NCBI GenBank assembly: GCA_963813155.1
Contig: CAWEYG010000004.1
Span: forward strand, 64,001-128,000
DNA length: 64,000 bases
DNA from: an uncultured Acidobacteriota bacterium
GTDB lineage: Bacteria; Acidobacteriota; Thermoanaerobaculia; UBA5066; DATFVB01
Reading direction: 5' to 3'
Shown here in pieces: positions 2,360 to 64,000 of the stretch (position 1 is the stretch's first letter; the number at the start of each line of letters is the position of its first letter). The notes beneath the pieces are model-generated. The model did not search any database. It worked only from the letters and a program-made list of their open reading frames with translations, and was not told where the DNA came from. The position numbers and the translations under genes were made by a program.

Positions 2360-5300
2360 ATGAGTTTGACGACCGGCGCTCGCCTGGGTCCCTACGAAAT
2401 CGTCGCTCCTCTCGGCGCCGGAGGCATGGGAGAAGTGTACCGGGCGAGGGACGTGCGCCTCGGCCGCGAAGTGGCGGTCAAGGTATTGCCCGAAGAGTTC
2501 GGGCGGGATCCCGAGCGCCGGCAGCGATTCGAGCGGGAAGCTCGCGCCGCTTCCGCCCTGTCCAGCCCTCATATCGTGACGGTCTTCGACGTCGGCCAGG
2601 AGGCCGAGGTCTGTTTCCTCGTGACCGAGCTCGTCGAGGGCGGTGACCTGCGCTCCCTCATCGGCAGTTCCGGTCTCACGGTCGAAAGAGATCGTCGCTC
2701 TCGCGCACCAGATCGCCGTCGGCCTTTCCGAAGCGCACGAGAAGGGAATCGTCCATCGCGACCTGAAACCGGAGAACGTTCTCGTCTCGAAATCGGGGGC
2801 GGCGAAGATCGCCGATTTCGGTCTTGCGAAAGTGTCGGCGAACGACGGAGACGACCTGTCTCAAATGTTGACGACCGACCGGGAGATGACCAGCCAGGGG
2901 GTCATCCTGGGGACGCTGCCCTACATGTCCCCCGAACAGGCGCGCGGAGAGAGAGTCGACTTCCGGTCGGACCAGTTCGCGCTCGGCGCGATCATCTACG
3001 AGCTCTTGACGGGGTCTCGCCGTTCAAGCGCCCGACGGCGGTGCTGACTCTCTCCGCGGTGATGGACCACGATCCACCGGCGCTGGGGGAGCATCGCAGC
3101 GGGCTGCCGGCTCGGTTCGAGAGAATCGTCCGTCGCTGCCTGGCAAAGGACAGGGAAGCGCGGTACCACTCGACGAAGGACCTCGCGCGGGACCTTCTCG
3201 ACGCGTCCCGGCCCACGGTCGCGCCGTCGAAATCCGCGGCCTTGCCGCCCAGCCCGACTTTCGGGCGGACCCGCGAGCTCGAGGGGCTTCGGGCCCTTCT
3301 CGAACGAAGGGACGTTCGCCTGCTGACGCTGACGGGCCCGGCCGGGATCGGAAAGACACGCCTCGCTCGCCAGGTCGCCTACGAGCTCGCGTCCGATTTC
3401 CCGGGCGGTGTGGAGTTCGTGTCTCTCGCGACTCTCAGCAATCCTTCGCTGCTGATTTCGGCCATCGCGAAATCGCTCGGGGTCGGCGAGCAGCCGGGCC
3501 GGCCGCTCGACGAGTCCCTTCGGGAGCATCTGGCCGGCCGGGCCGGGGGCGCGACGCTCCTCGTTCTGGACAACTTCGAGCATCTCGTCTCGGAGGCCGG
3601 AGCGCTTCCGCCCATTCTCGACGCGGCGCCCGGGGTCAAGATTCTCGCGACGAGCCGCTCGGTGCTTCGCCTCTACGGCGAGCAGGAATTCCCGGTTCCG
3701 CCGCTCGAAACTCCGCGAGCGGGTGGCCGCGCCACGCCGGAGGCTCTCGAGACCATCGCTTCGGTCGAGCTCTTTCTCCAGAGGGCGCGCGCCGTGGCGC
3801 CGGATTTCTCGCTGACCGCCGAGAATGCGTCCGAAATCGCCGAGATCTGCCGGCGCCTGGAAGGAGTGCCCCTCGCGTTGGAGCTCGCCGCCGCGCGGGT
3901 CAAATTGTTCGCTCCCCGGACCCTGCTGGGACGCCTGGAGAAACGGCTCGATCTTCTGACGGGCGGTCCGCGGGACTCGCCCGGCCGCCTTCAGACGCTG
4001 CGGGCGGCGATCGATTGGAGCCACGATCTGCTCGACGATTCGGAGAGGACGCTCTTTCGCCGGATCGCGGTCTTCCGGGGCGGTTTCACGCTGGAGGGCG
4101 TCGAGGCGGTGTGCAACGCGCGCGAGGACCTGAGCCTCGACGTTCTGGAAGGAGTTGCTTCGCTCCGGGACAAGAGTCTCCTTCTCCGAATCGAGGGTGA
4201 GGAGGAGGAGCCGCGTTTCGCCCAGCTGGAGACGATTCGCGAGTACGGGTCGGAGCAGTTGACGAAGAGCGCGGAGCAGGAGTCGGTCTGCCGCTGTCAT
4301 GCGGCGTATTTCCTGGTTCTCGCCGAGGAGGCCGACGCGAAGCTGACGGGCCCCGAGGGCCCGGCGTGGTACACGCGCCTGAAGCAGGAGGAGGCCAACC
4401 TGCGGGCAGCCGTGGATTGGTTGACGCTCGGGAACGAGCCGGTCTGGGGCCTGCGTCTCGGCGCGGCCCTGCTTCGGTACTGGGAGAGGCAGGAGTATTT
4501 CTCCGAGGGACGCGCGCAGCTCGAGGGCCTGCTCGCCGTGGCGGGCGCGCAGGTCCGGACGCGGGAGCGCGCGAGAGCCCTGCTCGCGGCGGGCATCCTG
4601 TCCTTCGCCCAGGGCAACCTTGCCGCGGGAACCGCCCGCGCTCAGGAGAGTCTCGAGATCTTTCGCGAAGTCGGCGATCGCCGAGGATGGGTCGCGGCCT
4701 TGAACGATCTGGCGGTCGGCGCGTTTTCCCGGGGCGAGTACGCGACGGCGGCTCCTCTGTTCGAGGAAGCGATCCCGATTCTGGAAGAGATCGGCGACCG
4801 CCTCGCCGCGGAGCGCACGCGGATGAACCTTGCGGACACACTGCGGGCTTCGGGAGACGAGGAACGCGCCCGCGCGCTATTCGAGCGGTGTGTTCAGGCA
4901 TTCACCGATCTCGCGGACTTCGACGGCCTGGCGTGGACGATGAGTCATCTCGCCAGGATGGAGAGCGACCGCGGGGGCCGCGTCGAGGCAAGACAACTGC
5001 TGACCCACAGCCTTTCCCTTTTCGAGAAGACGGGGGATTTCGTCGGGGTCGCCAATTGCCGGAGCGACTTGAGCAGGATTGCGGGAGGGGAGGGCGATTT
5101 TCCGGCCGCCCGCGAGCACCTTCGCAGCGGTATTCTCGTGGCGAGACGCGAGGGACTGCGGAGAAGCCTTGCGCGCCTCGCCGACGACGCCTGCGCGATG
5201 GCCGTCGCCGAGGGGCGATCCGAGGCAGCGCGTCCGCCTGGCCGCATCGGTCGAATCGTTTCGGAGGAGCAGCGGCTTTCCCGCGCCCGCAGGTGGAACG

Positions 5301-51157: not shown

Positions 51158-51744
51158 TGGCGAACCTGCTGCTCCTCGCGTCTTATCTTCTCGGCTCGGT
51201 CTCGTTTTCGATCGTCGTCGTCCGTCTCATCGCCCACAAGGACATCCGCGAAGAAGGCTCGGGGAATGCGGGAGCGACGAACGTGCTGCGCAATCACGGC
51301 GCGGCCGCGGGAATCGTGGTCGCGCTTCTCGACGTGGCGAAGGGGGCCGCGGCCGTGATCGCCATGCGCGCCGTGACGGCGAATCCCGCCTACGTCGCGG
51401 GCGCCGCGTTTGCGGTGATCCTCGGGCACGTCTTTCCGCTCTTCTTTCGATTTCGCGGGGGCAAGGGGGTCGCGACGACCCTCGGGGCTTTCGCCGCCGC
51501 GGCCTGGGCGCCGACCCTCGTCGCGGCCGGGATCTTTCTCGCTGTCGTCGCGGTCACCCGGTACGTCTCTCTGGGGTCGATCCTCGCGACCGTCGCCCTG
51601 CCTCCCGTCTCGATTCTGCTGTTTCGAGTACCGGACGCGATCGTTCTCGCCGAATGCGCGGTCGCCCTGCTCGTGCTCTTCAAACACCTCGAGAATCTGA
51701 AGCGCCTGGCCGCCGGAACCGAGCGGAAGCTGGGCTCGAAGTGA
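51157..51744 (+). CDS. plsY: glycerol-3-phosphate acyltransferase
   Basis: YLLGS, GSGNAGATNVLR, DVAKG, GH.FP.F..FRGGKGVAT, KH.EN..RL..GTE. Confidence 0.92.
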   Translation: MANLLLLASYLLGSVSFSIVVVRLIAHKDIREEGSGNAGATNVLRNHGAAAGIVVALLDVAKGAAAVIAMRAVTANPAYVAGAAFAVILGHVFPLFFRFRGGKGVATTLGAFAAAAWAPTLVAAGIFLAVVAVTRYVSLGSILATVALPPVSILLFRVPDAIVLAECAVALLVLFKHLENLKRLAAGTERKLGSK

Positions 51745-52723
51745 GAATCGTCGTCCTCGGCGCCGGCTCGTGGGGAACGGCGCTGGCCGTTCAGGCGGCG
51801 CGGCGCGGGACACGAATCGGTGCTCTGGACGCGGGATGCGGAGACCGCCGCTTCGATCCGTCGCGAGCGCCGGCATCCCCGCCGGCTCGCCGGCTTCGTG
51901 CTTCCGGACGGAGCTCGCCGTCGAGTCCGACCCCGGGTGCGTCCGCGGCGCGGAGCTGGCGGTTCTCGCCGTGCCGTCCGCGGCCGTGCGGGAAACGCTG
52001 GAGACGCTCCGGGGAGGGAGCCCGGAGTCGATCTGGGTCTCGGCCGTGAAGGGTTTCGAGATCGAGACGGGAAGGACGATCTCCCGCGTCCTCGCGGAAA
52101 GGGTGCCCGCCGAGCGCATCGCCGTCGTTTCCGGCCCGACGTTCGCCGACGAAGTGATGCGGGGCGATCCGACGGCCGCGGTCGTGGCGTCGGAACGGGC
52201 CGAAACCGCGCAGGTCGTGCAGCAGGCCCTTTCGTCTCCCGTGTTCCGGCTCTACGGCAGCGAGGACGTCGTCGGGGTGGAGCTCTGCGGGGGCCTGAAG
52301 AACGTGATCGCCATCGCGAGCGGAATCGTGTCCGGCCTCGGCCTCGGCCACAACACGATCGCGGCGCTGATGACCCGCGGCCTGGCGGAAATCCTCCGGC
52401 TCGTGCTGGCTCGCGGCGGGAGGGAAAAGACCCTGCTCGGCCTTGCGGGGGCGGGCGACCTGATGCTCACCTGCACGGGATCGCAGTCCCGGAACCGCCG
52501 GGTCGGCGAGGAGATCGGCCGGGGAACTCCGCCGGCCGAGGCGATCGCGAGGACCCCCGAGGTCGCGGAAGGAACGAGGGCCTGCGTGGCGGCGGTCGCG
52601 ATGGCGGCCGCGTCGAGGGTCGAAATGCCGATCGCGGCGGCGGTTCGGGAAGTCCTCTACGAGGGGGTCGCGCCGAAGGACGCGATCCGCGCATTGATGA
52701 CCCGCGACCTCCGCTCGGAATGA
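51741..52723 (+). CDS. gpsA: NAD(P)H-dependent glycerol-3-phosphate dehydrogenase (frameshifts near the 5' end)
   Basis: GAGSWGTALA, AVPS, SGPTFA, GVELCGGLKNVIAI, GLAGAGDL.LTC...SRNRR. Confidence 0.9.
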
Positions 52724-52760
52724 GAGGTTCACGTATAATCGCGGCAAGAGGTCGAACGAC

Positions 52761-53566
52761 ATGAGACGAGCGATTGCAGGGATCGTCGCCGCAGGTGCGG
52801 CGTTTGCGATTGGCGCGGCCGGTTTCGCCGCTCCCACGGCGCGGCGGTTTCCGAATCGGCGTCTGCCGCACCCGCGGCTCTGACTGCCGACGCCAACCTA
52901 CTCGTGGAGCAGGAAGTGGGTGTCGGCACGCGGATTGACGGGATCATCGACTCCATCCAGGCAGAGCGGGGACAGGCGGTGAAGAAGGGGCAGGCGCTCG
53001 CGACACTCGACCAACGGGAGTTCGAGCTCGACCGCCGGGCGGCCGAGGCCGCTTTCTCGGCTGCGGATGCCGATTTCAAACGCTACCAGGAGCTCTTCGG
53101 GCAGAAGCTCGCGAGCAAGGCGGAGCTCGAGCAGCGGCGCGCGCATTTCGAGCAGGCAAAGGTCGACCTCGAGAAGGCGAAGCTCGTGATCGACCGGTCC
53201 GTCATTCGGGCGCCCTTCGACGGCATCGTCGTCGACCGCACGGTTCGGGCCGGTCAGAAGGTGCAGACCTCCGACGCTCTGCCACTCTTCAAGGTCAGCG
53301 CCCTCGATCCCCTGTTCGCGCGGGTGTACCTGAACGAGAGCTGGCTCGATCGGCTTCGCGTCGGGGAGCCGGTGACGGTCATTTCTTCGAAGTTTCCCAA
53401 GGCTCGTTCCGTGGGCAAGATCTCGTTTCTCGCGCCCGTCATCGATTCGGCGAGCGGCACCTTCCAGGTGATCGTGACGGTCCCGCGGGACCACGACAGG
53501 ATCTTCCGCCCGGGAAGCTCGGTGAAGATCAGCTTCAATCCCCGGCGGACGGCAATCCGGGAGTGA
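52761..53566 (+). CDS. membrane fusion protein (HlyD/RND periplasmic adaptor); frameshift near 52840
   Basis: Signal-like MRRAIAGIVAAGAAFAIG; G...V.KGQ.LATLD, hairpin, IRAPFDGIV, IDSASGTF. Confidence 0.85.
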
Positions 53567-54282
53567 CCGCCCCGCGCCGGTCGCGCCGGCGAATGCGCTC
53601 GACGATGGACTCGGTTTTTCTTCACGACATGAAGAATCTCGAGTTCCGGCTGAACCTGCTCCTCTCCAATCTCGAAGAGCACTACGGCGATCCCGATTTC
53701 AAGCGCAGCGTCGTCGAGCTGCTCCAATCCTCGCTGCAGAAGGTGGATACGGTCGTGGAGCGATGGTCGGCGCACAAGGACGCCGTGATGATCAAGGTTC
53801 CCGTCGACGTCAACGAATTGCTCGCCGACGCGACGAACCGGGTCCGGCCCCGCGATTCCTACCGCGGCGACGGCGCGCTCGCCCCGCGAGTGGAATTCTC
53901 GGCGGAGCCGCTCCCTCCGGTCTGGGCAGACCCGCACTACCTGAGCGACGCGTTCGCGAGCATTCTTCAAAACGCCCTCGAGGCTGCGGGACCGGGAGGA
54001 GTGGTGTCCGTCGAGAGCCGCCCGGAGGACCGCCGCGGCGCGCCGTGGGTCGCCGTGGACATCGCCGACAACGGCCCCGGCATGAGTCGCGAATTCGTTC
54101 GAACTCGCCTCTTTCGCCCGTTTCAGACGTTGAAGAGCTACGGGATCGGGCTCGGTCTCTACACGGCGCGCGAGATCATCCGCTCCCACCGCGGGCGCCG
54201 TTTCCGTCAAGAGCCGGCTCGGCCAGGGGACGCTCGTGACCGTGAGACTGCGCGCGGAGCGGGAGAAAGCCTCCCGGCTTGA
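53563..54282 (+). CDS. histidine kinase core (HisKA + HATPase), PrsK-like, no sensor/TM domain; 3' frameshift
   Basis: FLHDMKN (phospho-His), QNALEA, DIADNGPGM, LFRPFQT.K..GIGLGLY. Confidence 0.82.
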   Translation: MTAPRRSRRRMRSTMDSVFLHDMKNLEFRLNLLLSNLEEHYGDPDFKRSVVELLQSSLQKVDTVVERWSAHKDAVMIKVPVDVNELLADATNRVRPRDSYRGDGALAPRVEFSAEPLPPVWADPHYLSDAFASILQNALEAAGPGGVVSVESRPEDRRGAPWVAVDIADNGPGMSREFVRTRLFRPFQTLKSYGIGLGLYTAREIIRSHRGRRFRQEPARPGDARDRETARGAGESLPA

Positions 54283-55658
54283 CGGTGGATGGCCGGCTCG
54301 CGATCGTCGAAGACGACGAATTCTGCTCGATCAGCTCCGCTGGGCGCTCAAGGGAAAGTTCGAAGTCCTCGACGGCCGGCAATGCGATCGACGGAATCGC
54401 GCTCGTCGACTCCGCGCCCGACTGTTTCCTGATCGACCTGCGGCTTCCGCCGTCCAACGAACCACAGGAGGGCCTCGATCTGCTTCGGCGCCATTCGCCG
54501 AAGGCGCCCGGGCATCCCGGTCATCGTCATGACCGGAGAGAAGGAACGCCGGTTCGCGCTGAAGGCGATCGAGAACGGGGCCTACGACTTCTTCCGAAAG
54601 CCGGTCGACCCCGTCGGAGCTCGCGCTGATCGTCGGGCGCGCGCTGGAGCGGCAGCGGATTCTTCCAGGAGAACCGGGCCCTCAAGGACGATCTCCTCGG
54701 CGCGCAGAGCCTGGGAAGCCTCGTCGGCGCGAGCCCCCCGATGCGGGCGCTCTTTCGCTCGATCGAGAAGGTGGCCCCGTCCGACGCGACCGTCCTGATC
54801 GTCGGGGAGAGCGGCACCGGCAAGGAGCTCGTCGCCCAGGCGATCCACCGGGGGAGCCCGCGCGCCTCCGGGCCCTTCATCGCCGTCAACAGCTCCGCGC
54901 TGCCCGAGACGCTCGCCGAGTCGGAGCTGTTCGGGCACGAGAAGGGCGCGTTCACGGGCGCCGTCGCCGCCCGGCCGGGAAAGTTCGAGCTCGCGCACGG
55001 CGGGACGCTTTTCCTCGACGAAGCCGCGACCCTGTAGCGCTGCCGTTCAGGCCAAGCTGCTCCGCGTCCTCGAATCGCGAAAATTCGAGCGGGTGGGGGG
55101 ATCGAGGACGATCTCGGTCGACATCCGCCTCCTCGTCGCGACGAACGAAGACCTCGAAACGAGAGTCGCGGCGGGAACGTTTCGAGAGGACCTCTTCTAT
55201 CGGCTGAACACGGTGGTCCTGAAGATTCCGCCGTTGCGGGATCGGGGCGAGGACGTGCTCGCTGCTGGCGGACGCGTTCGCCGTCCGCTGGGCGACGCAC
55301 CACCGCAAGAAGCCGAAGGTGTTCTCGCCGGAAGTCCGGCAGGCCTTTCGGACCCACCGCTGGCCGGGCAACGTCCGGGAGCTGGAGCACCTGGTCGAGA
55401 TGCTCACCCTCATGGCCGACGAGGAGGAGATCCTGCTGGATCATTTGCCGGGGATCCGGTTCGGGCGGATTCAGCCCCCGGCCGGGCAGCCGCGGCCGCG
55501 CCCGCGGACGCCCTTCCTGAGATCCGTCGAGCGGTTCGAGAGAGACCTCGCTCGCCTCCGCAATCGCCGCGTTCGCGGGAGTAAGAGCGAAAGCGGCCCG
55601 GTCCCTGGGGCTCGAGCCGAATCAGATGAACTATCTCTGCCGGAAGCATCGCCTCTGA
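54279..55658 (+). CDS. sigma54-dependent response regulator (REC-AAA+-HTH, PrsR/NtrC-like); several frameshifts
   Basis: [62 protein letters not shown]-terminal HTH. Confidence 0.88.
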
Positions 55659-55685
55659 GACCGGGGCATAGAGTTGTTCAACTGT

Positions 55686-55713
55686 GTGAAAATTTGACGG
55701 ATGAATTTTTCAC
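55686..55713. promoter_or_regulatory. candidate upstream activator site for the sigma54 activator
   Basis: AT-rich imperfect inverted repeat GTGAAAATT-N10-ATTTTTCAC about 85-110 bp upstream of the -24 box. Confidence 0.5.
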
Positions 55714-55795
55714 CGGCCGATCGTCGCTGACTCTTGTGCTACTCGTAAGTTGCTGGATTATAGATGCTTGAGTCCGGTCGGGAACACCCGCAAAG

Positions 55796-55812
55796 CTGGC
55801 CTCCACCTTGCG
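55796..55812 (+). promoter_or_regulatory. sigma54 (-24/-12) promoter
   Basis: CTGGCCTCCACCTTGCG: GG(55798-9)-N10-GC(55810-11) with TGGC and TTGC cores; GGGAGGA RBS and ATG 55843 follow. Confidence 0.75.
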
Positions 55813-55842
55813 ATGTGACGATGACACGAAAGGGAGGACAAA

Positions 55843-56546
55843 ATGGGAAACGATGTGAGGATCAAACTGACGGAGGAACAGATGGCAAAGATCAAGGCAG
55901 GAACTGGCAAGGAAATGGGAGAGATTCGGGTCGGAAACATCGGAAACGCCCCCGGCGCCGACCGCGTCGCTCTCGTTCGGCTCGAAGCCTGGCCTTGGCG
56001 GGCAAGCCTGGCCTTGGGTCGAAGCCTGGCCTTGGCTCGCAAGCCTGGCCTCGGGCAAGCCTGGCCTCGGGCAAGCCTGGCCTTGCGGTAAGCCTGGCCT
56101 CGGCTCGCAAGCCTGGCCTCGGTTCGAAGCCTGGCCTCTCGGCCAAGCCTGGCCTGTCGGCTGCAAGCCTGGCCTCGGCTCCAAGCCTGGTCTCGGCCAA
56201 GCCTGGTCTCGGGTCCAAGCCTGGCCTCTCCAAGCCTGGCTCTCGGTTCCAAGCCTGGCCTCGGTTCCAAGCCTGGCCTGTCGGCTCAAGCCTGGCCGTC
56301 GGGCAAGCCTGGTCTCGGGCAAGCCTGGTCTCGGCCAAGCCTGGCCTGTCGGCCCAAGCCTGGCTCTCGGTTCCAAGCCTGGCTCTCGGTTCCAAGCCTG
56401 GCCTCTCGGGCAAGCCTGGCCTGTCGGTTCCAAGCCTGGCCTCTCGGTTCCAAGCCTGGGCTGTCGGCCAAGCCTGGCTCTCGGTGCAAACCGGGGCTGT
56501 TCGGAAGCCGGGACTCAGCGGAAGCCGGGATTGGCGGACAAATTGA
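55843..56546 (+). CDS. putative repeat precursor peptide: ~45-aa leader + ~31 KPGL(G/S)x repeats (frame disrupted by indels; end approximate)
   Basis: Strong RBS; MGNDVRIKLTEEQMAKIKAGTGKEMGEIRVGNIG, then an array of AAG CCT GGC CTC/CTG units. Confidence 0.7.
55985..56533 (+). repeat. tandem ~18-bp coding repeat array
   Basis: 28 exact AAGCCTGG cores counted by eye plus three synonymous variants; mean spacing about 17.9 bp. Confidence 0.9.
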
Positions 56547-56651
56547 AATTCATGGCCTCTCAGGGGCCAGGGCGCTCTCGGGCAGACCTGCACTCTGAGG
56601 CTCACCGACGGTACGAATTCGACTCATCGCGAAAGCGGGGCGTTTTCAGTT

Positions 56652-58846
56652 CTACCAGATAACGCGGCGGGCCCAGTGGTAGATGACGTTCCACCACTGA
56701 ACGGCGAAGGGGGATCGCGCCCCAATGAGCTTGGCGTCCGCCTCCATGCCCGACGCGAGCTCGCCGTCTCCGTTTTCGACGAGAGCGACCGCGATGAACC
56801 GTTCGGGCCTTCCCCGAGCCGGAGGGGTGCCTCGAGAGCGCTCGAGGTGGCGGGGAGCTTCTCCGCCGCCGGAGCGATCTCCGTGATTTTCACCCGGAAC
56901 CGGCGGAAGGGGAGCGCTCGAACGTGCAGCGAGACCGGCTCGCCCACCCGGATCGACTGGAGGAGGCGCTCCGTGACGGGGATCTCGACTCGCATCGTCC
57001 GGGTGTCGCCGAGCTCGAAGAGCGGCGCGCCGGCGGCGACCGACGAGCCCAGGAGATCCTGGGGCCGGTGGGTGAGGATCGTCCCCGCGACGGGAGCGCG
57101 CACGACGAGGGCGCTTCGCACGGCTTCGGTCGCACGGAGGGCGGATGCCGCGGCCCCGGCGCGCGATTCGAATTCCGTGGAGCCCGCGGCCGATGCTTCC
57201 GCGCGGCTCAGGCTGGCCGCGCCCTCGAATCCGCCTTTCCGGGCGGTGAGCTCCCGAATGCGGCTCTCGACGGAGCGGCTCGTCAGAACGGCGAGCGTGC
57301 TCCCAGGCATGACCTGATCGCCCTCGCCGACGGCCACCGACGCAACGGTTGCGTCGGCGGGAGCCGACACCTGAAGGGTGGCCGCCGGTTTCAGGATCAC
57401 CGGGAGCTCGAAGGTTTCGTGCGGCCACGGGAGAATCAGAATCAGAAGGAAGACCGCGGCCCCGACGGCGAGCCGCCTCAGGATTTTGGGGGACATGAGG
57501 TACTCCTTCTTGTCGAGGTAGACCATTCGCAGGACGTCGGTGAACTTTCGCATTTTCTTTCGGAAGAGGCGAAGGAAGGTCAACAGCGTGAGCGGCGTGG
57601 TCAGCTCCCCCGCGAATCGGCCGTAGATGGCCGCGATCAGCGCGCCGATCGCGAGCATGATGGAGCCCATGTAGAAGGCCGCCAGAGGCCCATAGATGAG
57701 GAAAATCCGCCGTTTCCGCTTCGAGAGGACGGGGACTTCGACGGGCAGTCGAAGAATGTGTTTTTGAATGAGCGCGCCCATGTACGCGTACGATTCGGCC
57801 GGAGATTGGGAATCTCGATGATGTCTTCGAGCGCGTGGTAGCCGTCGTTGGGCGTCATCGGGTTCAAGTTGAAAAAAATCGTCGAGATGCCCGTGTAGAT
57901 CATTCCCATGTACGCGAAATGGTGAATGAAAGTATCGGGATAGCTCACGAGCCAGATCCCGGTGGCCAGGACGCACATGAGGAGCTCGATGTAGATTCCC
58001 GAGAGGTTGACCCAGAGCCGATGCCACTTGCTGTCGAAGAGCTCTGAGTCGAGCGTGTCGGTGAAATAGGCGGGCAGGAAGAAGACCAGCGCGAATCCGA
58101 TGCTGTGAACCTCTCCGCCGTACATTTTCATCGTGTAGGCGTGTCCCAGTTCGTGGAACGTGGAAATGAACGTGACGATGACGTAGAACTCGAGGATCTC
58201 GATCAGGGGCTTGTTGAGGAAGGAGAACAGCCGGAGCGTCTCCTCCCAGATTGCGAGTCCAGTGCTGAATGAAGACGGCGGTCATCAGGGAGAACAAAAC
58301 GAGCGACACGGCAACGACTTCGGGGCTCCAGATCCAGCGGACGTATTTGACCGTCTTGTTGAGGAATTCGTTCGGGTCCGCGATCGGGAAGAGCATGAGG
58401 AGGATGTTGAACCTCTTCTCCTTCTCCTCCGCCTTGAGCTTGCGGGCGTCTCGCAGCCGCTGCATGACGGCCAGGCCCCGCTCGCTTCCGGACTGGGCCA
58501 GGAGGTTCATGCTCTGCAGGTTCTCGGCGAAATCCATGACGAGAGTCGTTTCGATGCGATCGGTCGGATTCGCCGCGATGTAGGCGTCCCGGATCTCGGC
58601 GTGCGTTCGCTTGCCGTCGAACAGCTCGATCAGGCCCCATTCGGCGTCCGTAAACGTGTAAATCAACAGGGTTTCCGGGTTCTTGACGACCCACTTCGAT
58701 TCGCCCATCTGGACGAGGTGCCGGATGACGAGATCCGGTCGAAGCGCCGGACATTCGTTCGCGGGGGCGAGCTTGTGGGAGAGAGCCTCCGCGACCTGGC
58801 TGCTCGGGGTGGTCGAGAGGAGCGTTGCGCGAGAAGTGATGCTCAC
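56652..58846 (-). CDS. PqqD/RRE-like domain + M50 (site-2) zinc metallopeptidase + HlyD-like fusion; frameshifts
   Basis: N-terminal WVVKNPE..IYTF...ELFDGKRTHAEI; FHELGH; FNLNPMTPNDGY; C-terminal V.VGEGDQV..G, VRAPVAGTI. Confidence 0.8.
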
Positions 58847-61265
58847 GGCATCAGGGGCCAGAGCTTCGCCCAGAACCATCGCGCGGGCTTGCGGAAGAAG
58901 GCGTAACCGAGCCGCCGCGTCTCGGCGGAGATCTTCGCTTTGCCGAGCATTCCGGGATGGATCGCTCCGTCGCCGTTGTCGAGCAAGGCTTCCGCGAGGA
59001 CGAAACGGTCCTCGCCTTCTTCGCGGACGACCGGCGAGACTCGCCCGATCTTTCCGCGGAAGACGCGGGAGGGGTAGGTATTGAGTTTGACGGACACGTC
59101 CTCGCCGGCGCAAGAGGGCGGAATCGGCCTCCGCGACGGCCACCTCGACTTCGGCGGACCGCGTGTCGGCGATCACGGCAAGCTCCGCGCCGCTTGCGAC
59201 GGTCTGTCCGATCCGTTGCTTCCAGGTGGGGGGTGATCAGGACTCCGGAAGAGGGCGCGCGAACCTTCGTCTGGGCGAGGTTGTCCTCCGCCACGGCGTC
59301 GCGAGCGCGCGCATTTCGTCGAGCCGGGACATCGCCCGACCGAGCGCGGCTGTGTCTCCCGCCGCCTGGCTCCGCGCGACCTCGTTCCGGGCGATTTCGA
59401 GTCGGACGCGGGCCTGCGCCGCCGCGGCCTGATAGTCCTGGTCGTAGAGCGTCGCGACGACGTCGCCCTCCTTGACGGCGTCTCCTTCCCGGTGGAGGAC
59501 GGACGCGATCGTTCCCGGAACGGCGGCGGTGAGGGCCATGCGTCGGCCCGGTAGAACGCGCGCGGTTCCCGTCAGGCGGATGTTCCAGGGAAGGATCACG
59601 AGCGCGAGGAGGATCGACGGCGCCGATCGCCACGCGCCGGCGGAGCTTGTACTTCGGAAGGGCCGAGAGCTGCCGCTTCTTCTCGAGGAGCGGCTTCCAG
59701 AAGCCCGCGAGCGGCACCTGCTGGTACAGCTGGGCGTTTCGAATCGCGACGGTCGCCTGGTTGACGAGGATCTGGAGGAGATCTCGCCCTTCCTCGTCGA
59801 ACACGCGCGGCTCCGCGCTCTCGAAGGCGATCGCTCCGAGCTTGCCCTCTTCGTCCTGCAGGATGATCGCGAGGTAGGAGCGCATGCCGCTCTCCTCGAA
59901 GAAGATGCGGAATTTCTCGGTCGTCTCCGCGCGGTCGGTCACGATCTTGCCGTCGTCCTGTTGGGTGACCGAGACGTTGTTGCCGCCGTGGTAGACCCAC
60001 TCGAGGAGGTCGGCCGTCCGGGCGATCGAGGGATCGGACCGGTTGACTTCGTCGACGCCGGAGACCGCTCCCAGCCGAAGCTTTCCCCGCTGGACGATCG
60101 AGACGGAGCAGCGGTCGATGTCGACGAGGGCGGCGCTCGCGTTCGCGACGGTCTTCATGACGCGGTCGAGGTCGAGCGTCGACGTGATTTCGCGGCTGAC
60201 GGCGAGCAGTGCGTCGAGCTCCTCGACCCGGCGCTCGGCGCCGTAGCGCCGGGCGTTGTGCAGCGACCGAACCGCCTGGTGGCCGAGATCGGTCAGGAGA
60301 AGGGCGTCGGTCTCGTGAATCGGGGGCGCCTCCCGCGTCTTGTTGACGATGATCATGAAGCCGACCGTTTCTTCGTCTTCGAGCAGCGGCAGCGTCAGAA
60401 CGGACGAGACCGGAAACGGGCTTTCCTGCCGGAGGAAATGCTCGGGGAAGCTCGTTCTCGTACGTCGCCTCCCGCGCGCCGATCGCGTCGCCACGATCGA
60501 GGCGCCGATCGAGTCGGGCGGATGGATCTCGTAGTTCTCGTTGATGGCCGTCGCGGCGAGCGCGACCTCGCCCTCGCTTCCCTGGAGGACCCAGAGCGAC
60601 GCGATTTCGGCGTTTGCGAAGTCGACCGCCTTCCGCGCGATCATCGCCGTGAGCTCGTCCCAGTCCAGCGTCGAACCGAACGCCTTCGAAAGGTCGTAAA
60701 GGTTCGTCAGCCGCTCGATCGCGTGGAGCATTCCGGAGGTCTTCTTGTCCTGTTTCAGGCGCGGCCGACCGCCAGCGCCGCATCCGGCACGAACGTCGAG
60801 AGATCGCGCGAGCGCGGCTTTGAGGTTGGCGCCCTTCTCCGGAAGAGGACCGCGGCGACGCCGATGACTCCTTCGTCGGCGGCGAGGGGGAGGGCCAGGC
60901 AGACGCCGAAGTTCCGGGCGCCGGGCGGGAGCCACGGATCGTCGGAGACGAGAAGCTCCGCCGACGTCAGCGAGAAGGATTCGCGGTCGCGAATCAGTCG
61001 CCAGACGAATCCGTCACCGCGCGGAACCGATTGCTGGAGGATCCGTCCGATGGCTTCGCCGGTCGCCCCGGTGCAGGTGAAAACGGGATGGATCGGGTCC
61101 TGCGTCCAGACAAGGGCCGCGTCGGCTCCGGCGATCGCCGCGAGCCAGCGAGCCGCCCAGGCGGACGTCTGGGCCAGCGTCTCGCAGGCGAGTAGTTCGG
61201 CGAGAGCGGCCGCAAAATCGCCCTCGGTGGGCGTCGGCGGCGGTGCTTTCCGGCTCGTCCGACAT
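58843..61265 (-). CDS. multi-GAF-domain + HlyD-like membrane fusion protein; frameshifts
   Basis: GAF motifs (LALPL..DEGVIGV; LTLPLLEDEETVG...AVRSLHNAR; AIILQDEEGKLG...ATVAIRNAQLY), TM, then REGDAVKEGD, VRAPSSGV, HPGMLGKAKI. Confidence 0.8.
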
Positions 61266-61295
61266 CGAGTCGTTCTTTCCGGCTTCGGTGCGGGT

Positions 61296-61633
61296 TCAGA
61301 AGCTCGCGACCGCTTCCTCCAGGTCCTGATGAATCTCGAAGACGGAGTCGAGCTGCGTCATTTCCAGGAGCTTCTTCAGATTCGGTCCCGGCGCGAGCAG
61401 CTTGGTCTGGCCGCCCTTCCTTCTGCGAGTTCGTCAGCGTTCGCACGAGGGCGCCGAGCCCCGTGGAGTCGACGAGGCCGAGCGCCCCGCAGTCGATGAG
61501 GAGGTCTGACCTTGCCCTCTTCGAGGAGGCGCGTCACCGAGCGCTTGAAAGAAGCTTCGGACTCGCCGATCACCAGATCTCCCGAGAGAGAGACGATGCT
61601 CACCCGGCCATCTTCGCGAATTGAGATTTCCAT
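61296..61633 (-). CDS. STAS-domain anti-sigma-factor antagonist; frameshifts
   Basis: MEISIRE...LSGDLVIG...VDSTGLGALV...LLEMTQLDSVFEIHQDLEEAVASF*. Confidence 0.85.
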
Positions 61634-61703
61634 GTTCTGGCGGGATCATCTCAAAAAGAAACCGGAAATGCTAGAGTCGAGGCCGGGGGAGGAACAACCT
61701 CAG

Positions 61704-62642
61704 TTGGCGCAAGAGAAACCGGGGATTCTGGTCACCGGGGGTGCGGGGTTCATCGGAAGCCATGTCGCCCGCGCCTACGTGGAGGCGGGGCGCCGGGTCG
61801 TCGTCCTCGACAATTTCTCGACCGGTTCGCCGAGCGGGGTTCCCCCGGGGGCTGCCCTCGTCGAAGGCGACCTGAACGAGCTCGATCTCGAAGCCGTCTT
61901 CGCCGATCACGGCATCGGCGTCGTGAACCATCACGCGGCCCACATCGATCTGCGGGAATCCGTGCGGGACCCCGTTTTCGACGCGCAGGTGAACGTGATC
62001 TCGACGCTGAGGCTCCTGGAGTCCGCCCGCCGCGCGGGCGTCCGGAAAGTGATTTTCGCGTCGACCGGCGGGGCGATCTACGGCGAGCCCCGCGGCGCGA
62101 TGGCAGCGGAAGACCATCCGACCGACCCGCTCTCGCCGTACGGCGTCGCGAAACTGGCGGTCGAGAAATACCTCCACTTCTACCGCACGGAACACGGATT
62201 CGAGACCGTCGTTCTCCGCTACGCGAACGTCTACGGGCCGGGCCAGAACGGCAAGGGGGAGGCGGGTGCGGTCGCGATCTTTCTGGAGCGAATGCTCGCG
62301 GGCCTTCCGGCGATCATCCACGGCGACGGTGAGCAGACCCGCGATTTCGTTTTCGTGGGCGACTGCGTCGAGGCGAACCGGCGCGTCCTCGAGGCCGGCC
62401 GGAGCGGAATCTGGAACGTCGGCACCGGCGTCGAGACTTCCGTCAACGCGCTGGCGGAGCTGATCCGGACGGCCACGGGATCCCGCGCGCCGATCGAGCA
62501 CGATGCGGCCGCCCCCGGGGAGCAGCGGCGAAGCGTGCTGGACGGCCGGAAGCTGCTGGCGGACTTCGGAATCGGAAGCTACGTGCCCTTGCGTGAAGGA
62601 CTTGCCGCGACCGCGGCGGCTTTTCGCTCGTCCGGAGCCTGA
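61704..62642 (+). CDS. NAD-dependent epimerase/dehydratase (UDP-glucose 4-epimerase-like)
   Basis: GGAGFIGSH, DNFSTG, STGGAIYG, YGVAK, RYANVYGP, GDGEQTRDF. Confidence 0.92.
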   Translation: MAQEKPGILVTGGAGFIGSHVARAYVEAGRRVVVLDNFSTGSPSGVPPGAALVEGDLNELDLEAVFADHGIGVVNHHAAHIDLRESVRDPVFDAQVNVISTLRLLESARRAGVRKVIFASTGGAIYGEPRGAMAAEDHPTDPLSPYGVAKLAVEKYLHFYRTEHGFETVVLRYANVYGPGQNGKGEAGAVAIFLERMLAGLPAIIHGDGEQTRDFVFVGDCVEANRRVLEAGRSGIWNVGTGVETSVNALAELIRTATGSRAPIEHDAAAPGEQRRSVLDGRKLLADFGIGSYVPLREGLAATAAAFRSSGA

Positions 62643-62773
62643 CGGGGCTCGATCTCCTTCAGGGTCACTGAGGCCAGCGCGGTTGGCGAAATGCGATTCG
62701 ATCCGGCGAGGGTAGCAGAGCGGGCGCGTCGCGCCGAAGACTCGGTGGCCCCGGCCTTGCTGTTGGAGAGACC

Positions 62774-63785
62774 GTGACCAGAGTCGAAAGGCTTCTCGCG
62801 ATCGGACTTCGAAGGGTCGCGGCAGGCTCGGGCCGATTTCGCTACGAGAACGCCGACGGCTCGGCTCCGTCGTCCGAGGACGAGGTCCGCGCCCGCCGCC
62901 TCGGGTTGCCGCCCGCCTGGTCCGACGTGCGGATCGAGCTCCGTCGGCGACGGCGAGCCTGCAGGCGATCGGAAAGGACGCCGCAGGCCGCTGGCAATAC
63001 CGTTACCACGATTCCCGGGTTGCGAGCCGGGAGCGGGAGAAGGCCGCGAGGTTGAGAAAATTCGCGGCTCGGTTCCCGGCTCTGAGGGCGGCCGTCGCGA
63101 GAGACTTGCGCCGGCCCGGCCTGCCGCGGGAAAGGGTTCTGGCCGCGATGACGCGGATCCTCGCGACGCGGTTACACTCCGGCCGGGAAGCCGCGCCTAT
63201 GCCGTGGAAAACGAGAGTTATGGAATTACGACTCTTCGCAAGAAGCACGTTTCGTTTCGAAACGGGGGCGCGGAGCTGCGATTCCGCGGGAAATCCGGCA
63301 AACAACGGTGTGTCGACACCGACGACCGCGGCGCCGTCGCCGTTCTGCGGCTTTGCGCGAAGCTGCCCGGCCGCGCGCTCTTCCAGTCACGCGATGCCGA
63401 CGGGTCGGTCGCCGCGGTCCGTCGACGGCAGCTCAACGCCTACATTCGGGAGGGCATGGGCGAGGGCTTTTCCGCGAAGGACTTTCGCACATGGGCCGCG
63501 ACGTTGATTTGCGCCAACGAGCTCGCCCGGTCGTCCGACGGCGGCGTCGACTCGAAGACCACCCGGCGGAGACGGATCGTCGCGGCCGTCGCCGAGACCG
63601 CGCGGCGTCTCGGGAACACTCCCGCCGTGTGCCGAAGCTCTTACATCTCGCCTCGCGTGATTTCGAGCTTCGAACGAGGTGTGACGCTGCGGGTGACCGT
63701 TCCGTCGGTTGAGCGGCTCGGGCGCCGCGTCGCGCCCCACCCGATCGAGCGGGAACTCGGGAAATTGCTCGGGGAGGGCGGCTAA
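62774..63785 (+). CDS. DNA topoisomerase IB (frameshifts)
   Basis: LPPAWSDV, GRWQYRYH, SYGITTLRKKH, FRGKSGK, KDFRTW, LGNTPAVCRSSY (catalytic Tyr). Confidence 0.9.
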
Positions 63786-63861
63786 TGGTATTCGGAAGGG
63801 GGTAGCTCCCCAACCGGTTGGGGCATTTTCTGGCACGGTTCTGGCTGCTATCCTCTCTGTC

Positions 63862-64000
63862 ATGAGAACGATCTGGAAAGGCCATTTGAGCTTCGGTTTG
63901 ATCTCGGTGCCCGTCGGACTCTACGCGGCCCTGGAGGCGTCCGAGCGCGTGTCGTTCCGCCTTCTTCATCGAAAGGACCTGTCGCCCATCGAGTACAAGA
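63862..64000 (+). CDS. ku: Ku protein (NHEJ), 5' part
   Basis: MRTIWKGHLSFGLISVPVGLYAA...VSFRLLH.KD.SPIEYK. Confidence 0.9.
   Translation, partial: MRTIWKGHLSFGLISVPVGLYAALEASERVSFRLLHRKDLSPIEYK

What the first reader, a model, noticed from the sequence alone, without database searches (positions are those of the whole stretch)
52761..61633. Candidate new repeat-peptide maturation/secretion system: sigma54-driven (KPGLxx)n precursor flanked by RRE-M50-HlyD and GAF-HlyD genes
Seen: two gene blocks converge. On the + strand are an MFP, a histidine kinase, a sigma54 activator, a -24/-12 promoter and a leader-plus-repeat gene. On the - strand are STAS, multi-GAF/HlyD and PqqD-like/M50/HlyD genes. 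That makes three membrane-fusion modules within 9 kb. Established: PqqD-fold RiPP recognition elements bind precursor leaders; M50/site-2 family membrane proteases can process peptides (B. subtilis YydH/EpeP is assigned this role); HlyD adaptors form type I-like export conduits. Inference: the peptide is induced by the adjacent activator, captured through its leader by the RRE, cleaved by the M50 domain and exported through an MFP conduit. I know of no described system with this product.
Basis: partly seen in the sequence, partly recalled or inferred. Interest (0 to 1): 0.9.

Follow-up and report, generated by a model that had tools for sequence, protein, structure and literature searches.

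The report
Leader-plus-repeat peptide processing and export locus
A soil acidobacterium carries a conserved, undescribed gene cluster in which a small gene with a fixed leader and a species-specific repeat tail sits beside a membrane protease fused to a leader-binding domain and a pump-adaptor domain.

Summary
Only 8 of 27 repeat spacings are 18 nt.

These breaks look like assembly errors. A second copy in the same assembly (C3:1-10245) has the six larger genes in one frame each, and its repeat gene has a single frame change. The closest clean ortholog, L004, is intact. Short-read soil contigs carry 1-nt differences that rejoin the frames.

The real gene encodes a ~38-aa leader plus (KPGLSG)n. 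Across 75 assessable related loci, 73 have a small convergent gene right after the M50-HlyD gene. The leader is conserved and the repeat differs in almost every genome. A TGG-N9-[TC]GC sigma54-type element precedes 44 of 45 such genes.

The fusion protein's N-terminus folds as a RiPP recognition element; its top structural matches are TbiB1 and CteB. Its core has the M50 motifs and aligns end to end with the daptide RRE-site-2 protease model. Its C-terminus resembles MacA and AcrA. No pump, outer-membrane channel or tailoring enzyme is conserved in the cluster.

Leader binding, cleavage and export remain inferred. I found no description in print. I rate it a new variant of a known kind, interest 0.8.

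The parts
52761..53566 (+). Free membrane-fusion (HlyD/RND-adaptor) protein; one frame break near 52884-52900
   Evidence: Pfam HlyD_3 6.9e-23 and HlyD_D23 1.3e-22. NCBIfam RND_mfp 1e-49. Residues 44-266 of the L004 ortholog align to 52895-53563 at 80% identity.
53563..54282 (+). Small histidine kinase with no recognisable sensor domain; frame change near 54195
   Evidence: HATPase_c 9.1e-13. The best NCBIfam match is the C-terminal part of PrsK, TIGR02916, 9.3e-35, below its cut-off. Frames.
54279..55658 (+). Sigma54-dependent response regulator (REC-AAA+-HTH); at least two frame changes (about 55034 and 55250)
   Evidence: The window pieces hit Sigma54_activat 2.6e-40 and AAA_lid_14. The intact L004 ortholog has Response_reg, Sigma54_activat and HTH_8. 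Frames; the stop was read.
55797..55811 (+). -24/-12 (sigma54-type) promoter element, TGGC-N7-TTGC
   Evidence: An equivalent element precedes 44 of 45 orthologous small ORFs. rpoN is present in the genome.
55843..56546 (+). Precursor gene: conserved ~38-codon leader followed by the repeat core. The frame is broken from about codon 38 onward and the 3' end is uncertain.
   Evidence: ATG with a GGGAGG Shine-Dalgarno. Two paralogs in the same genome and the L004 ortholog encode the leader plus (KPGLSG)n. In leaders the third codon position varies about twice as much as the first two.
55985..56482 (+). Tandem array with an 18-nt consensus unit, which would encode KPGL-x-x; unit spacings in the window are 15-20 nt
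   Evidence: TRF: period 18, 27.5 copies, 9% indels. Spacings. Short-read contigs carry 1-2-nt indel differences from the window at three places in the array.
56652..58879 (-). RRE - M50 (site-2-type) metalloprotease - HlyD adaptor fusion, about 742 aa. Frame breaks flank the M50 core, and another lies near 56803.
   Evidence: Homologs are 714-742 aa. All 18 aligned homologs hit Peptidase_M50 and the HlyD families. The daptide HExxH protease model matches all 18, best 1.3e-50. Frames.
58505..58747 (-). RiPP-recognition-element (PqqD-like) domain of the fusion protein; coordinates are mapped from L004 residues 45-125
   Evidence: AlphaFold2 model with pLDDT above 90 over residues 50-125: three strands plus three helices. 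Top Foldseek hits are TbiB1 with its leader (5v1v, TM by target 0.72, probability 1.00), CteB and a lasso B1 protein. A profile search of PDB sequences puts PqqD 3g2b first, at E 0.47.
58843..61267 (-). GAF-repeat - TM - HlyD adaptor protein, about 809 aa; frame breaks near 59107, 59615 and 60750
   Evidence: GAF, GAF_2 and GAF_3 hits on the window piece. The L004 ortholog has two matched GAF stretches plus HlyD_D23 and HlyD_3. Frames. Its end overlaps the M50 gene start by 37 nt, as in L004.
61296..61633 (-). STAS (anti-sigma-antagonist-like) protein, 111 aa; two frame changes
   Evidence: The L004 ortholog hits STAS 5e-19 and TIGR00377 4e-18. The window aligns in three frames at 75-95% identity.

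Best explanation
The window holds an error-ridden copy of a conserved acidobacterial gene cluster for leader-guided processing, and probably export, of small repeat peptides.

**Proposed mechanism**
- A sigma54 promoter drives a small gene. The adjacent REC-AAA+-HTH activator and its sensor-less kinase presumably fire that promoter.
- The gene product has a conserved leader of about 38 residues and a species-specific tandem-repeat core, here (KPGLSG) about 27 times.
- The convergent gene encodes one polypeptide with three parts: a cytoplasmic RiPP recognition element, a site-2-type M50 zinc protease (seven membrane helices inferred), and a periplasmic MacA/AcrA-like adaptor domain.
- I propose that the RRE captures the leader and the M50 site removes it at the membrane.
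- The repeat peptide would then leave through a periplasmic conduit built from three adaptor modules: the fusion protein, the GAF-TM-adaptor protein and the free adaptor. This conduit would dock on a TolC-type channel encoded elsewhere in the genome.
- The GAF and STAS parts would gate or report on this process.

**Shown here:** gene content and order, their conservation across genomes, the RRE fold, the catalytic motifs, homology to RiPP leader peptidases, the adaptor fold, promoter conservation, and the coding nature of the small gene.

**Inferred:** binding, cleavage site, export, and the regulatory wiring.
For: **Co-occurrence**
- 73 of 75 assessable loci carry a small convergent ORF of leader type A (35 loci), B (12) or C (26) within 3.5 kb after the M50-HlyD gene.
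- A GAF-HlyD gene lies upstream on the same strand in 78 of 80 loci. A sigma54 activator lies beyond the small ORF in 71 of 80; the nine misses all have under 1.7 kb of sequence after the M50 gene, mostly contig ends.

**The small gene is coding**
- Across 34 type-A leaders, entropy per codon position is 0.58, 0.49 and 1.13 bits.
- In L004, 18 different 18-mers encode only two hexapeptides. In the orphan copy on C3, 11 DNA variants encode 23 identical hexapeptides.

**Conserved leader, hypervariable core**
- Ten leader columns are invariant across 33 leaders, while repeat units differ in nearly every genome.
- A leader profile finds 183 cluster representatives at E <= 1e-3 and 81 at <= 1e-10 among 1.84 billion proteins.

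**Promoter**
- TGG-N9-[TC]GC precedes 44 of 45 small ORFs. rpoN is present in the genome.

**RRE domain**
- The model has pLDDT above 90 with a beta3-alpha3 layout. Nine of the ten best PDB matches are RREs, three of the entries solved with a bound leader peptide.

**Protease**
- H242, E243, H246, N339, P340, D345 and G346 are invariant in 76 sequences.
- L004 residues 54-443 align to positions 10-373 of the 379-position daptide RRE-site-2 protease model.
- That protease class is described as an RRE-dependent leader peptidase (bioRxiv 10.1101/2023.03.08.531785, passages read).

**Adaptor domain**
- Foldseek matches MacA, AcrA, MexA, ZneB and EmrA at E down to 1.6e-14.
- Helix pattern and positive-inside charges give seven membrane helices, which puts the RRE inside and the adaptor outside (my inference).

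**Outer-membrane channel**
- Eight TolC-family genes (16 OEP repeats) lie elsewhere in the genome.
Against: - No inner-membrane pump (ABC, RND or MFS), no outer-membrane factor and no tailoring enzyme belongs to the conserved gene set. M50 proteases are not established translocases, so export is the weakest step.
- Sequence support for PqqD is weak. The Pfam PqqD model hits 1 of 18 homologs at E 0.14, the PDB profile hit is E 0.47, and Foldseek E-values are only 2.6e-3 to 4.7e-2.
- GAF, STAS, kinase and activator are signalling parts, so the cluster could be a signalling device rather than an exporter.
- The match between RRE clade and leader type follows phylogeny and is not independent evidence.
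- Leader type C peptides (26 loci) have no tandem repeats, so repeats are not universal.
- Related fusions occur in a second phylum, but a crude screen of 14 such loci found no tandem-repeat small ORF within 1.5 kb.
- In the window itself every gene is frame-broken. I cannot fully exclude that this particular copy is decaying.
Confidence: 0.6

Rival explanations
1. Regulated-proteolysis signalling module. The small repeat proteins are cytoplasmic regulatory substrates or decoys. The RRE-M50 protease destroys them in response to an envelope or metabolic signal sensed through the GAF, STAS and periplasmic adaptor domains. Nothing is exported.
For: Site-2 proteases classically act in signalling (established knowledge). 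The cluster is rich in signalling parts: STAS, GAF repeats, a kinase and a sigma54 activator. No pump or outer-membrane factor is conserved in it.
Against: The small proteins have no membrane segment. The nearest curated relatives of the protease are RiPP leader peptidases, not RseP or SpoIVFB types. Three MacA/AcrA-like adaptor modules with hairpins are conserved, which is hard to explain without a conduit. A hypervariable core behind a conserved leader is the pattern of secreted peptides.
Confidence: 0.2
2. The repeat gene encodes a bacterial collagen-like (Gly-X-Y) structural or adhesive protein, and the flanking genes are an unrelated efflux and regulatory cluster.
For: (G-K-P)(G-L-S) places glycine at every third residue. 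There are weak NCBIfam hits to the Scl2/SclB, Scl1 and Lcl collagen-like adhesins, best 1.1e-19.
Against: The Scl2 score of 70.7 bits is far under the 325-bit cut-off, and the translation shows no signal peptide, anchor or separate trimerisation domain. At the same genomic position other genomes have the same leader with repeats of period 3 to 22 that are not Gly-X-Y. The gene's linkage to the M50-HlyD gene is conserved.
Confidence: 0.05
3. The window's copy is a dead duplicate, a pseudogenised locus, or the repeat is simply non-coding satellite DNA.
For: 19 of 27 repeat spacings are not multiples of 3. All seven genes show frame changes. The indel density against the C3 copy is higher in the locus (252 gaps in 10,375 columns) than in the flanks (32-33 gaps in 3,525-5,084 columns).
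Against: Independent short-read contigs that are 97-99% identical to the window lack the frameshifts at 56803, 59612/59614, 60806 and 60858, and those differences rejoin the frames. They also carry 1-2-nt indel differences at three places in the repeat array. The C3 copy and L004 are intact. The tail of contig C4 and the head of contig C3 overlap as two versions of one region, a setting where consensus errors pile up.
Confidence: 0.08

Closest known systems
Daptide leader peptidase DapP/MpaP (an RRE fused to an intramembrane site-2 protease)
   Same: An N-terminal RRE is followed by an M50 core. L004 residues 54-443 align to positions 10-373 of the 379-position model NF041824, and all 18 homologs match it. 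Its described role is RRE-dependent removal of a leader peptide (bioRxiv 10.1101/2023.03.08.531785, passages read).
   Different: The scores are far under the model's cut-off (122 against 300 bits for L004). The acidobacterial protein has about 260 extra C-terminal residues: a membrane helix plus a MacA-like adaptor. No daptide tailoring genes (DUF-RRE, oxidative decarboxylase, aminotransferase, methyltransferase) are conserved nearby. The precursors are repeat proteins, not short peptides ending in Thr. Control is by sigma54.
Epipeptide protease EpeP/YydH (YydH/LiaK family, M50)
   Same: It is an M50 intramembrane protease that matures a small ribosomal peptide. All 18 homologs match NF058609, best 5.7e-15. 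EpeP is proposed to both cut and export its peptide (PMC10885120, passage read).
   Different: The scores are below the cut-off. No radical-SAM epimerase and no ABC transporter is conserved here. The host is a diderm, and the protein carries a fused adaptor domain.
Tripartite pump and type I secretion adaptors (MacA, AcrA, MexA, EmrA, HlyD)
   Same: The C-terminal 250 residues have the lipoyl / alpha-hairpin / beta-barrel build. Three such modules lie in one cluster.
   Different: The adaptor is fused to a protease or to GAF domains rather than standing beside an ABC, RND or MFS pump. No pump or outer-membrane factor is conserved in the cluster.
Peptidase-containing ABC exporters of bacteriocins, with their HlyD-type accessory proteins (recalled from general knowledge, not from a call)
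   Same: The logic is the same: a leader-cutting protease is physically joined to the export machinery, and conserved leaders sit on variable cores.
   Different: Those systems use a C39 cysteine protease on an ABC pump and cut after Gly-Gly. Here it is a zinc M50 protease with an RRE and no ATPase.
PrsK/PrsR, the sigma54 two-component pair of the PEP-CTERM/exosortase system
   Same: They are the best NCBIfam matches for the activator (TIGR02915, 430 bits) and the kinase (TIGR02916, 141 bits).
   Different: Both scores are under their cut-offs of 502.6 and 300. The kinase lacks the large PrsK membrane sensor, and no PEP-CTERM motif is visible in the precursor translations.
Bacterial collagen-like proteins (Scl1/Scl2, Lcl)
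   Same: The (KPGLSG)n variant has Gly-X-Y periodicity.
   Different: It has no signal peptide, anchor or trimerisation domain. Gly-X-Y periodicity is not conserved among orthologs.

Membership tests
RiPP recognition element (PqqD-like fold) | Three-stranded sheet followed by a three-helix winged-helix bundle | tested here: met
   The AlphaFold2 model has strands 51-57, 60-66 and 73-77 and helices 78-85, 93-103 and 111-123, with pLDDT above 90. Nine of the ten best Foldseek PDB hits are RREs, with TM by target 0.69-0.73 for the stand-alone ones.
RiPP recognition element (PqqD-like fold) | Significant match to the Pfam PqqD model or to PqqD sequences | tested here: not met
   PF05402 matches 1 of 18 homologs at E 0.14. 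A profile search of PDB sequences puts 3g2b PqqD first, but at E 0.47.
RiPP recognition element (PqqD-like fold) | Binds the precursor's leader peptide | not testable with these tools
   This needs a binding assay.
Peptidase M50 / site-2 protease | HExxH and NxxPxxxxDG motifs in membrane helices | tested here: met
   H242, E243, H246, N339, P340, D345 and G346 are invariant in 76 sequences. PF02163 matches 18 of 18 homologs. In the window itself this stretch lies partly out of frame.
Daptide system (DapP, NF041824) | Score over the curated cut-off, plus daptide tailoring genes and precursors ending in Thr | tested here: not met
   L004 scores 122 bits against a cut-off of 300. No tailoring gene is in the conserved set. 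Precursors are repeat proteins.
Epipeptide system (YydH/LiaK, NF058609) | Score over the cut-off, plus a radical-SAM epimerase and an ABC exporter nearby | tested here: not met
   L004 scores 43 bits against a cut-off of 225. Neither partner is in the conserved set.
Tripartite-pump membrane fusion protein | Lipoyl / hairpin / barrel fold and matches to the HlyD families | tested here: met
   HlyD_D23 and HlyD_3 match in all three proteins. Foldseek gives MacA at E 1.6e-14.
Tripartite-pump membrane fusion protein | Adjacent inner-membrane pump and outer-membrane factor | tested here: not met
   Neither is among the genes shared by at least 15 of 80 loci. TolC-type genes exist elsewhere in the genome.
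Sigma54-dependent gene | GG at -24 and GC at -12 with 10 bases between, conserved among orthologs, with an activator and rpoN present | tested here: met
   The element lies at 55797-55811. It precedes 44 of 45 orthologous ORFs. The activator is adjacent and rpoN is at C3:248370-248843. Transcription itself was not tested.
PrsK/PrsR (PEP-CTERM regulators) | Scores over the curated cut-offs | tested here: not met
   430 against 502.6 bits and 141 against 300 bits.
Collagen-like adhesins (Scl2/SclB) | Score over the cut-off, with a signal peptide, a trimerisation domain and an anchor | tested here: not met
   70.7 against 325 bits. None of these parts is visible in the 201-aa translation.

The most novel reading that the evidence does not exclude
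This would be a new kind of envelope-spanning secretion machine. A site-2-type protease with its own leader-recognition domain would take the place of the ABC, RND or MFS pump at the base of an adaptor-TolC conduit. Three different adaptor modules would build the tube. The machine would release unmodified, species-specific oligopeptide repeats, perhaps cut into dozens of copies of one short peptide that acts as a strain-specific signal fed back through the GAF, STAS, kinase and sigma54 circuit.
Probability: 0.25. Interest if true: 0.9.

Novelty: new variant of a known kind. Interest (0 to 1): 0.8.

Why it matters
Acidobacteriota are among the commonest soil bacteria, and very little of their peptide biology is known. 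This cluster is frequent: 49 of 401 sampled genomes of the phylum match at E <= 1e-60 (the tally includes the unpublished genomes G024 and G152). In the window's own order, 6 of the 7 other sampled genomes match.

**What is unusual**
- The cluster combines parts not seen together before: an RRE, a site-2 protease and a pump adaptor in one protein.
- It has a second adaptor fused to GAF domains.
- It has sigma54-driven precursors whose conserved leader carries a different tandem repeat in almost every genome.

**What it would mean if the reading holds**
- It would add a protease-based route of peptide export in diderm bacteria.
- It would reveal a large, fast-evolving family of repeat peptides with unknown roles, such as signals, antimicrobials or matrix components.
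- The question is directly testable, because every part is small and clonable.

Tried and rejected
**Results that gave no answer or led nowhere**
- Co-folding the RRE domain (residues 38-160 of alignment A2) with the 45-residue leader (alignment A3) gave no verdict: score 0.00 against a mark of 0.32. I draw nothing from it.
- No RNA holder was listed among the public runs, so expression could not be examined.
- All eight listed runs hold only small shares of the stretch, 0.06-0.20. I used their contigs only for local indel comparison. Parts without cover, such as 56313-56608, say nothing.
- No intrinsic terminator or sigma70 promoter was found in 55500-56800 by the simple scan.

**Literature**
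- Seven searches found no paper describing an RRE/PqqD-M50-HlyD fusion, these leaders, or sigma54-driven repeat precursors in Acidobacteriota. That is the basis for 'not found in print'.
- Subscription journals are not covered.
The daptide paper's lists of RRE families may include this family, and I could not check.
- PMC8277102 was opened for 'M50', but the single hit was a residue number.

**Ideas considered and rejected**
- Collagen-like adhesin: rejected, see rivals.
- Classification as a daptide or epipeptide system: rejected, see the membership tests.
- PEP-CTERM regulation: the scores are below the cut-offs.

**Limits on scope**
- A second phylum also has the fusion protein: 53 of 201 genomes match at E <= 1e-40. 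A crude screen of 14 loci with 1.5-kb flanks found no tandem-repeat small ORF, so I do not extend the repeat-precursor claim beyond Acidobacteriota.
- The search for related loci reported 580 relatives. Its search patterns are M50 motifs, so I count only the 80 loci that I examined as members.
- ESM Atlas rows are treated as leads only.

Full report
**What is in the window**

On the + strand:
- A free HlyD/RND-type adaptor lies at 52761-53566.
- A small histidine kinase lies at 53563-54282. Only its catalytic half is recognisable, and its best match is the C-terminal part of PrsK.
- A sigma54 activator lies at 54279-55658.
- A TGGC-N7-TTGC element lies at 55797-55811.
- A GGGAGG ribosome-binding site and an ATG at 55843 follow.
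- An 18-nt tandem array lies at 55985-56482.

On the - strand:
- A STAS gene lies at 61296-61633.
- A GAF-repeat/HlyD gene lies at 58843-61267.
- An M50/HlyD gene lies at 56652-58879, converging on the repeat gene.

Homolog names place the organism in the Thermoanaerobaculia, phylum Acidobacteriota.

**The window copy is frame-broken, most likely by assembly error**

- The frame that starts at 55843 stops at 56091.
- Spacings between repeat anchors are 15-20 nt, and only 8 of 27 are 18 nt.
- All seven genes align to their clean orthologs in two or more frames.

Three findings argue that this is not biology.

- First, the last 20 kb of contig C4 and the first 20 kb of contig C3 are two versions of the same region, 83-91% identical. 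In the C3 version the adaptor, kinase, activator, M50-HlyD, GAF-HlyD and STAS genes each align in a single frame over their full length. Its repeat gene has one frame change.
- Second, the closest public relative (locus L004, a Thermoanaerobaculia MAG) has the whole cluster intact in the same order, between gpsA and the same epimerase and Ku genes.
- Third, contigs from four public soil or rhizosphere runs match pieces of the window at about 97-99% identity. They differ by 1-2-nt indels at 56003 (three runs), 56107/56108, 56196, 56803 (two runs), 59612/59614, 60806 and 60858. Applying the differences at 56803, 59612 or 59614, and 60806+60858 merges the split alignments of the M50-HlyD and GAF-HlyD proteins into single frames. 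The three differences inside the array fall in units that are not 18 nt long in the window, which is consistent with length errors there.

**The real gene**

- The C3 copy, an orphan third copy (C3:354684-355289, 201 aa, intact) and L004 all encode a conserved N-terminal segment followed by (KPGLSG)n, with occasional KPGMSG.
- The repeat is under protein-level constraint. In L004, 22 units use 18 different 18-mers but encode only two hexapeptides. In the orphan copy, 11 DNA variants encode 23 identical units.
- Across 34 leaders, the third codon position carries about twice the entropy of the first two.
- All three copies in this genome have the TGGC-N7-TTGC element and the same ribosome-binding site.

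**Comparative genomics**

I aligned 18 intact homologs of the M50-HlyD protein (714-742 aa) and used the alignment to fetch 80 loci from species-representative genomes.

- Gene order is strikingly constant. A GAF-HlyD gene lies upstream on the same strand in 78 of 80 loci. A sigma54 activator lies convergent downstream in 71 of 80; the nine misses all have under 1.7 kb of sequence after the M50 gene. A STAS gene is nearby in 65 of 80. The small kinase stands next to the activator in 29, all of them loci with leader type A.
- A third, free adaptor gene is also conserved. It sits beside the kinase in one clade and between the GAF and M50 genes in the other.
- No pump, outer-membrane factor or tailoring enzyme is among the genes shared by 15 or more loci.
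- Between the M50-HlyD gene and the activator lie small convergent ORFs in 73 of the 75 loci that have at least 400 nt of sequence there.

The small ORFs fall into three leader families:
- Type A (35 loci) includes the window's.
- Type B (12 loci) is found in Terriglobia-type loci.
- Type C (26 loci) consists of 25-40-residue lysine-rich peptides in one to four copies, without tandem repeats.

In types A and B the leader is followed by tandem repeats that differ in almost every genome. Periods run from 3 to 22 residues or more. The cores range from strongly basic (for example KAT, KTAAKYAG, RKPTAKVAL) to acidic (EEGLR, DTSIESA, SADLAN). Several loci carry two or three precursor genes in a row.

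A TGG-N9-[TC]GC element lies within 130 nt upstream of 44 of the 45 small ORFs found by a first motif screen.

A profile of 33 type-A leaders finds 183 cluster representatives at E <= 1e-3, and 81 at <= 1e-10, among 1.84 billion proteins. I read all 150 that were listed. Most are a leader plus a novel repeat. Weaker hits show the same N-terminal motif on other repeat types, and on a few peptides that have a Gly-Gly motif. Neither Pfam nor NCBIfam has a model for any of these leaders.

**The fusion protein**

- N-terminal domain. From a 40-sequence alignment, AlphaFold2 predicts three strands and three helices for residues 50-125, with pLDDT above 90. Nine of its ten best PDB matches are RiPP recognition elements: TbiB1 and a lasso B1 protein solved with their leader peptides, and the RRE of the sactipeptide enzyme CteB. 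Sequence methods only hint at this. PqqD is the top PDB profile hit at E 0.47, and the Pfam PqqD model hits 1 of 18 homologs at E 0.14.
- Core. The core carries the invariant HExxH and NxxPxxxxDG motifs of M50 proteases.
- Homology to known leader peptidases. NCBIfam places residues 54-443 on positions 10-373 of the 379-position daptide RRE-site-2 protease model, in 18 of 18 homologs, though far below the family cut-off. The epipeptide protease family YydH/LiaK comes second. The daptide paper describes exactly such an RRE fused N-terminally to a site-2 protease that removes the leader (bioRxiv 10.1101/2023.03.08.531785, passages read). A review notes that the M50 enzyme EpeP is thought to both cut and export its peptide (PMC10885120, passage read).
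- C-terminal domain. A full-length model (pLDDT 82) shows a helix pattern that I read as seven membrane helices with lysine/arginine-rich cytoplasmic loops. This puts the RRE in the cytoplasm and the last 250 residues in the periplasm (my inference). That C-terminal part matches MacA, AcrA, MexA, ZneB and EmrA at Foldseek E-values down to 1.6e-14.

**How it most likely works**

- I commit to a leader-guided processing system: the sigma54-induced precursor is captured by the RRE and its leader is removed by the M50 site. I put this at about 0.7.
- I think it more likely than not that the three adaptor modules form a periplasmic conduit to one of the eight TolC-type proteins encoded elsewhere, so that the repeat peptide leaves the cell.
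- Export is the weakest link, because no pump is present and M50 enzymes are not proven translocases.
- The GAF repeats, STAS protein, sensor-less kinase and activator look like a feedback or gating circuit. Its wiring is unknown.
- The main rival is a pure signalling device in which the small proteins are degraded rather than exported.
- The collagen-like reading of KPGLSG is very unlikely, because the Gly-X-Y pattern is not conserved at this position in other genomes.

**Comparison with known systems, and novelty**

- The protein works like DapP/MpaP and EpeP but is not a member of either curated family (see the membership tests).
- The fused adaptor, the GAF-adaptor partner, the absence of tailoring enzymes and of a pump, the sigma54 control and the repeat precursors set it apart.
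- Seven literature searches found no description. Supplements were closed, so RRE family lists there could not be checked.
- The cluster is common. It is found in 49 of 401 evenly sampled genomes of the phylum at E <= 1e-60, and in 6 of the 7 other sampled genomes of the window's order (the tally includes the unpublished genomes G024 and G152).
- Related fusion proteins occur in a second phylum, in 53 of 201 genomes at E <= 1e-40. ESM Atlas clusters give leads to Planctomycetota and Pseudomonadota, some members carrying a Pfam PqqD hit. I did not find repeat precursors beside 14 of the second-phylum genes in a crude screen.

**Verdict**

- It remains unproven for binding, cleavage and export.
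- I rate it a new variant of a known kind, interest 0.8.

Noticed in passing
window 52416-64000 (C4:116416-135225) versus G000 C3:1-20566: The tail of contig C4 and the head of contig C3 are two versions of the same 20-kb region, 83-91% identical. They include housekeeping genes such as gpsA, an epimerase and Ku. The C3 version is clean and the C4 version is indel-rich. This looks like two strains or haplotypes in one bin rather than a true duplication.
   Followed up: partly
G000 C3:354684-355289 (- strand); L003:1010-1615: This is an orphan third precursor gene: 201 aa, intact, a leader plus about 24 GKPGLS units, with its own TGGC-N7-TTGC element. It lies between an amino-acid permease and an SDR/Tgt region, far from any M50-HlyD gene.
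   Followed up: partly
proteins P0121-P0187: The same N-terminal leader motif also occurs on other peptide families. Some have repeats built around a DRANP-like unit. Some are short peptides with a conserved acidic stretch ending in IAP. A few have a Gly-Gly cleavage-type motif. This suggests a wider leader superfamily used by several systems.
   Followed up: no
L024, L025, L027, L032, L036, L041: These loci carry two or three tandem precursor genes with related but distinct repeat units. In five of the six loci I found a -24/-12 element before each of two of the genes.
   Followed up: partly
window 62746-62760 (+): A second exact TGGC-N7-TTGC match lies 14 nt before the GTG ORF at 62774. It may be chance: the window has 3 matches against 1.05 expected.
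   Followed up: no
window 51654-52723 (+): gpsA, just upstream of the locus, also shows a frame change between its N-terminal part (the frame of the ORF at 51654) and the rest (the ORF at 51770). This fits the rising error density towards the contig end.
   Followed up: no
L084-L097 (genomes of a second phylum): RRE-M50-adaptor-type fusion proteins of 650-750 aa are frequent there: 53 of 201 genomes, often with several copies per genome. What their substrates are is open.
   Followed up: partly
P0038, P0039: Two very long repeat proteins (1425 and 3346 aa) top the leader-profile hit list through many short partial matches. These are probably low-complexity noise unrelated to the system.
   Followed up: no
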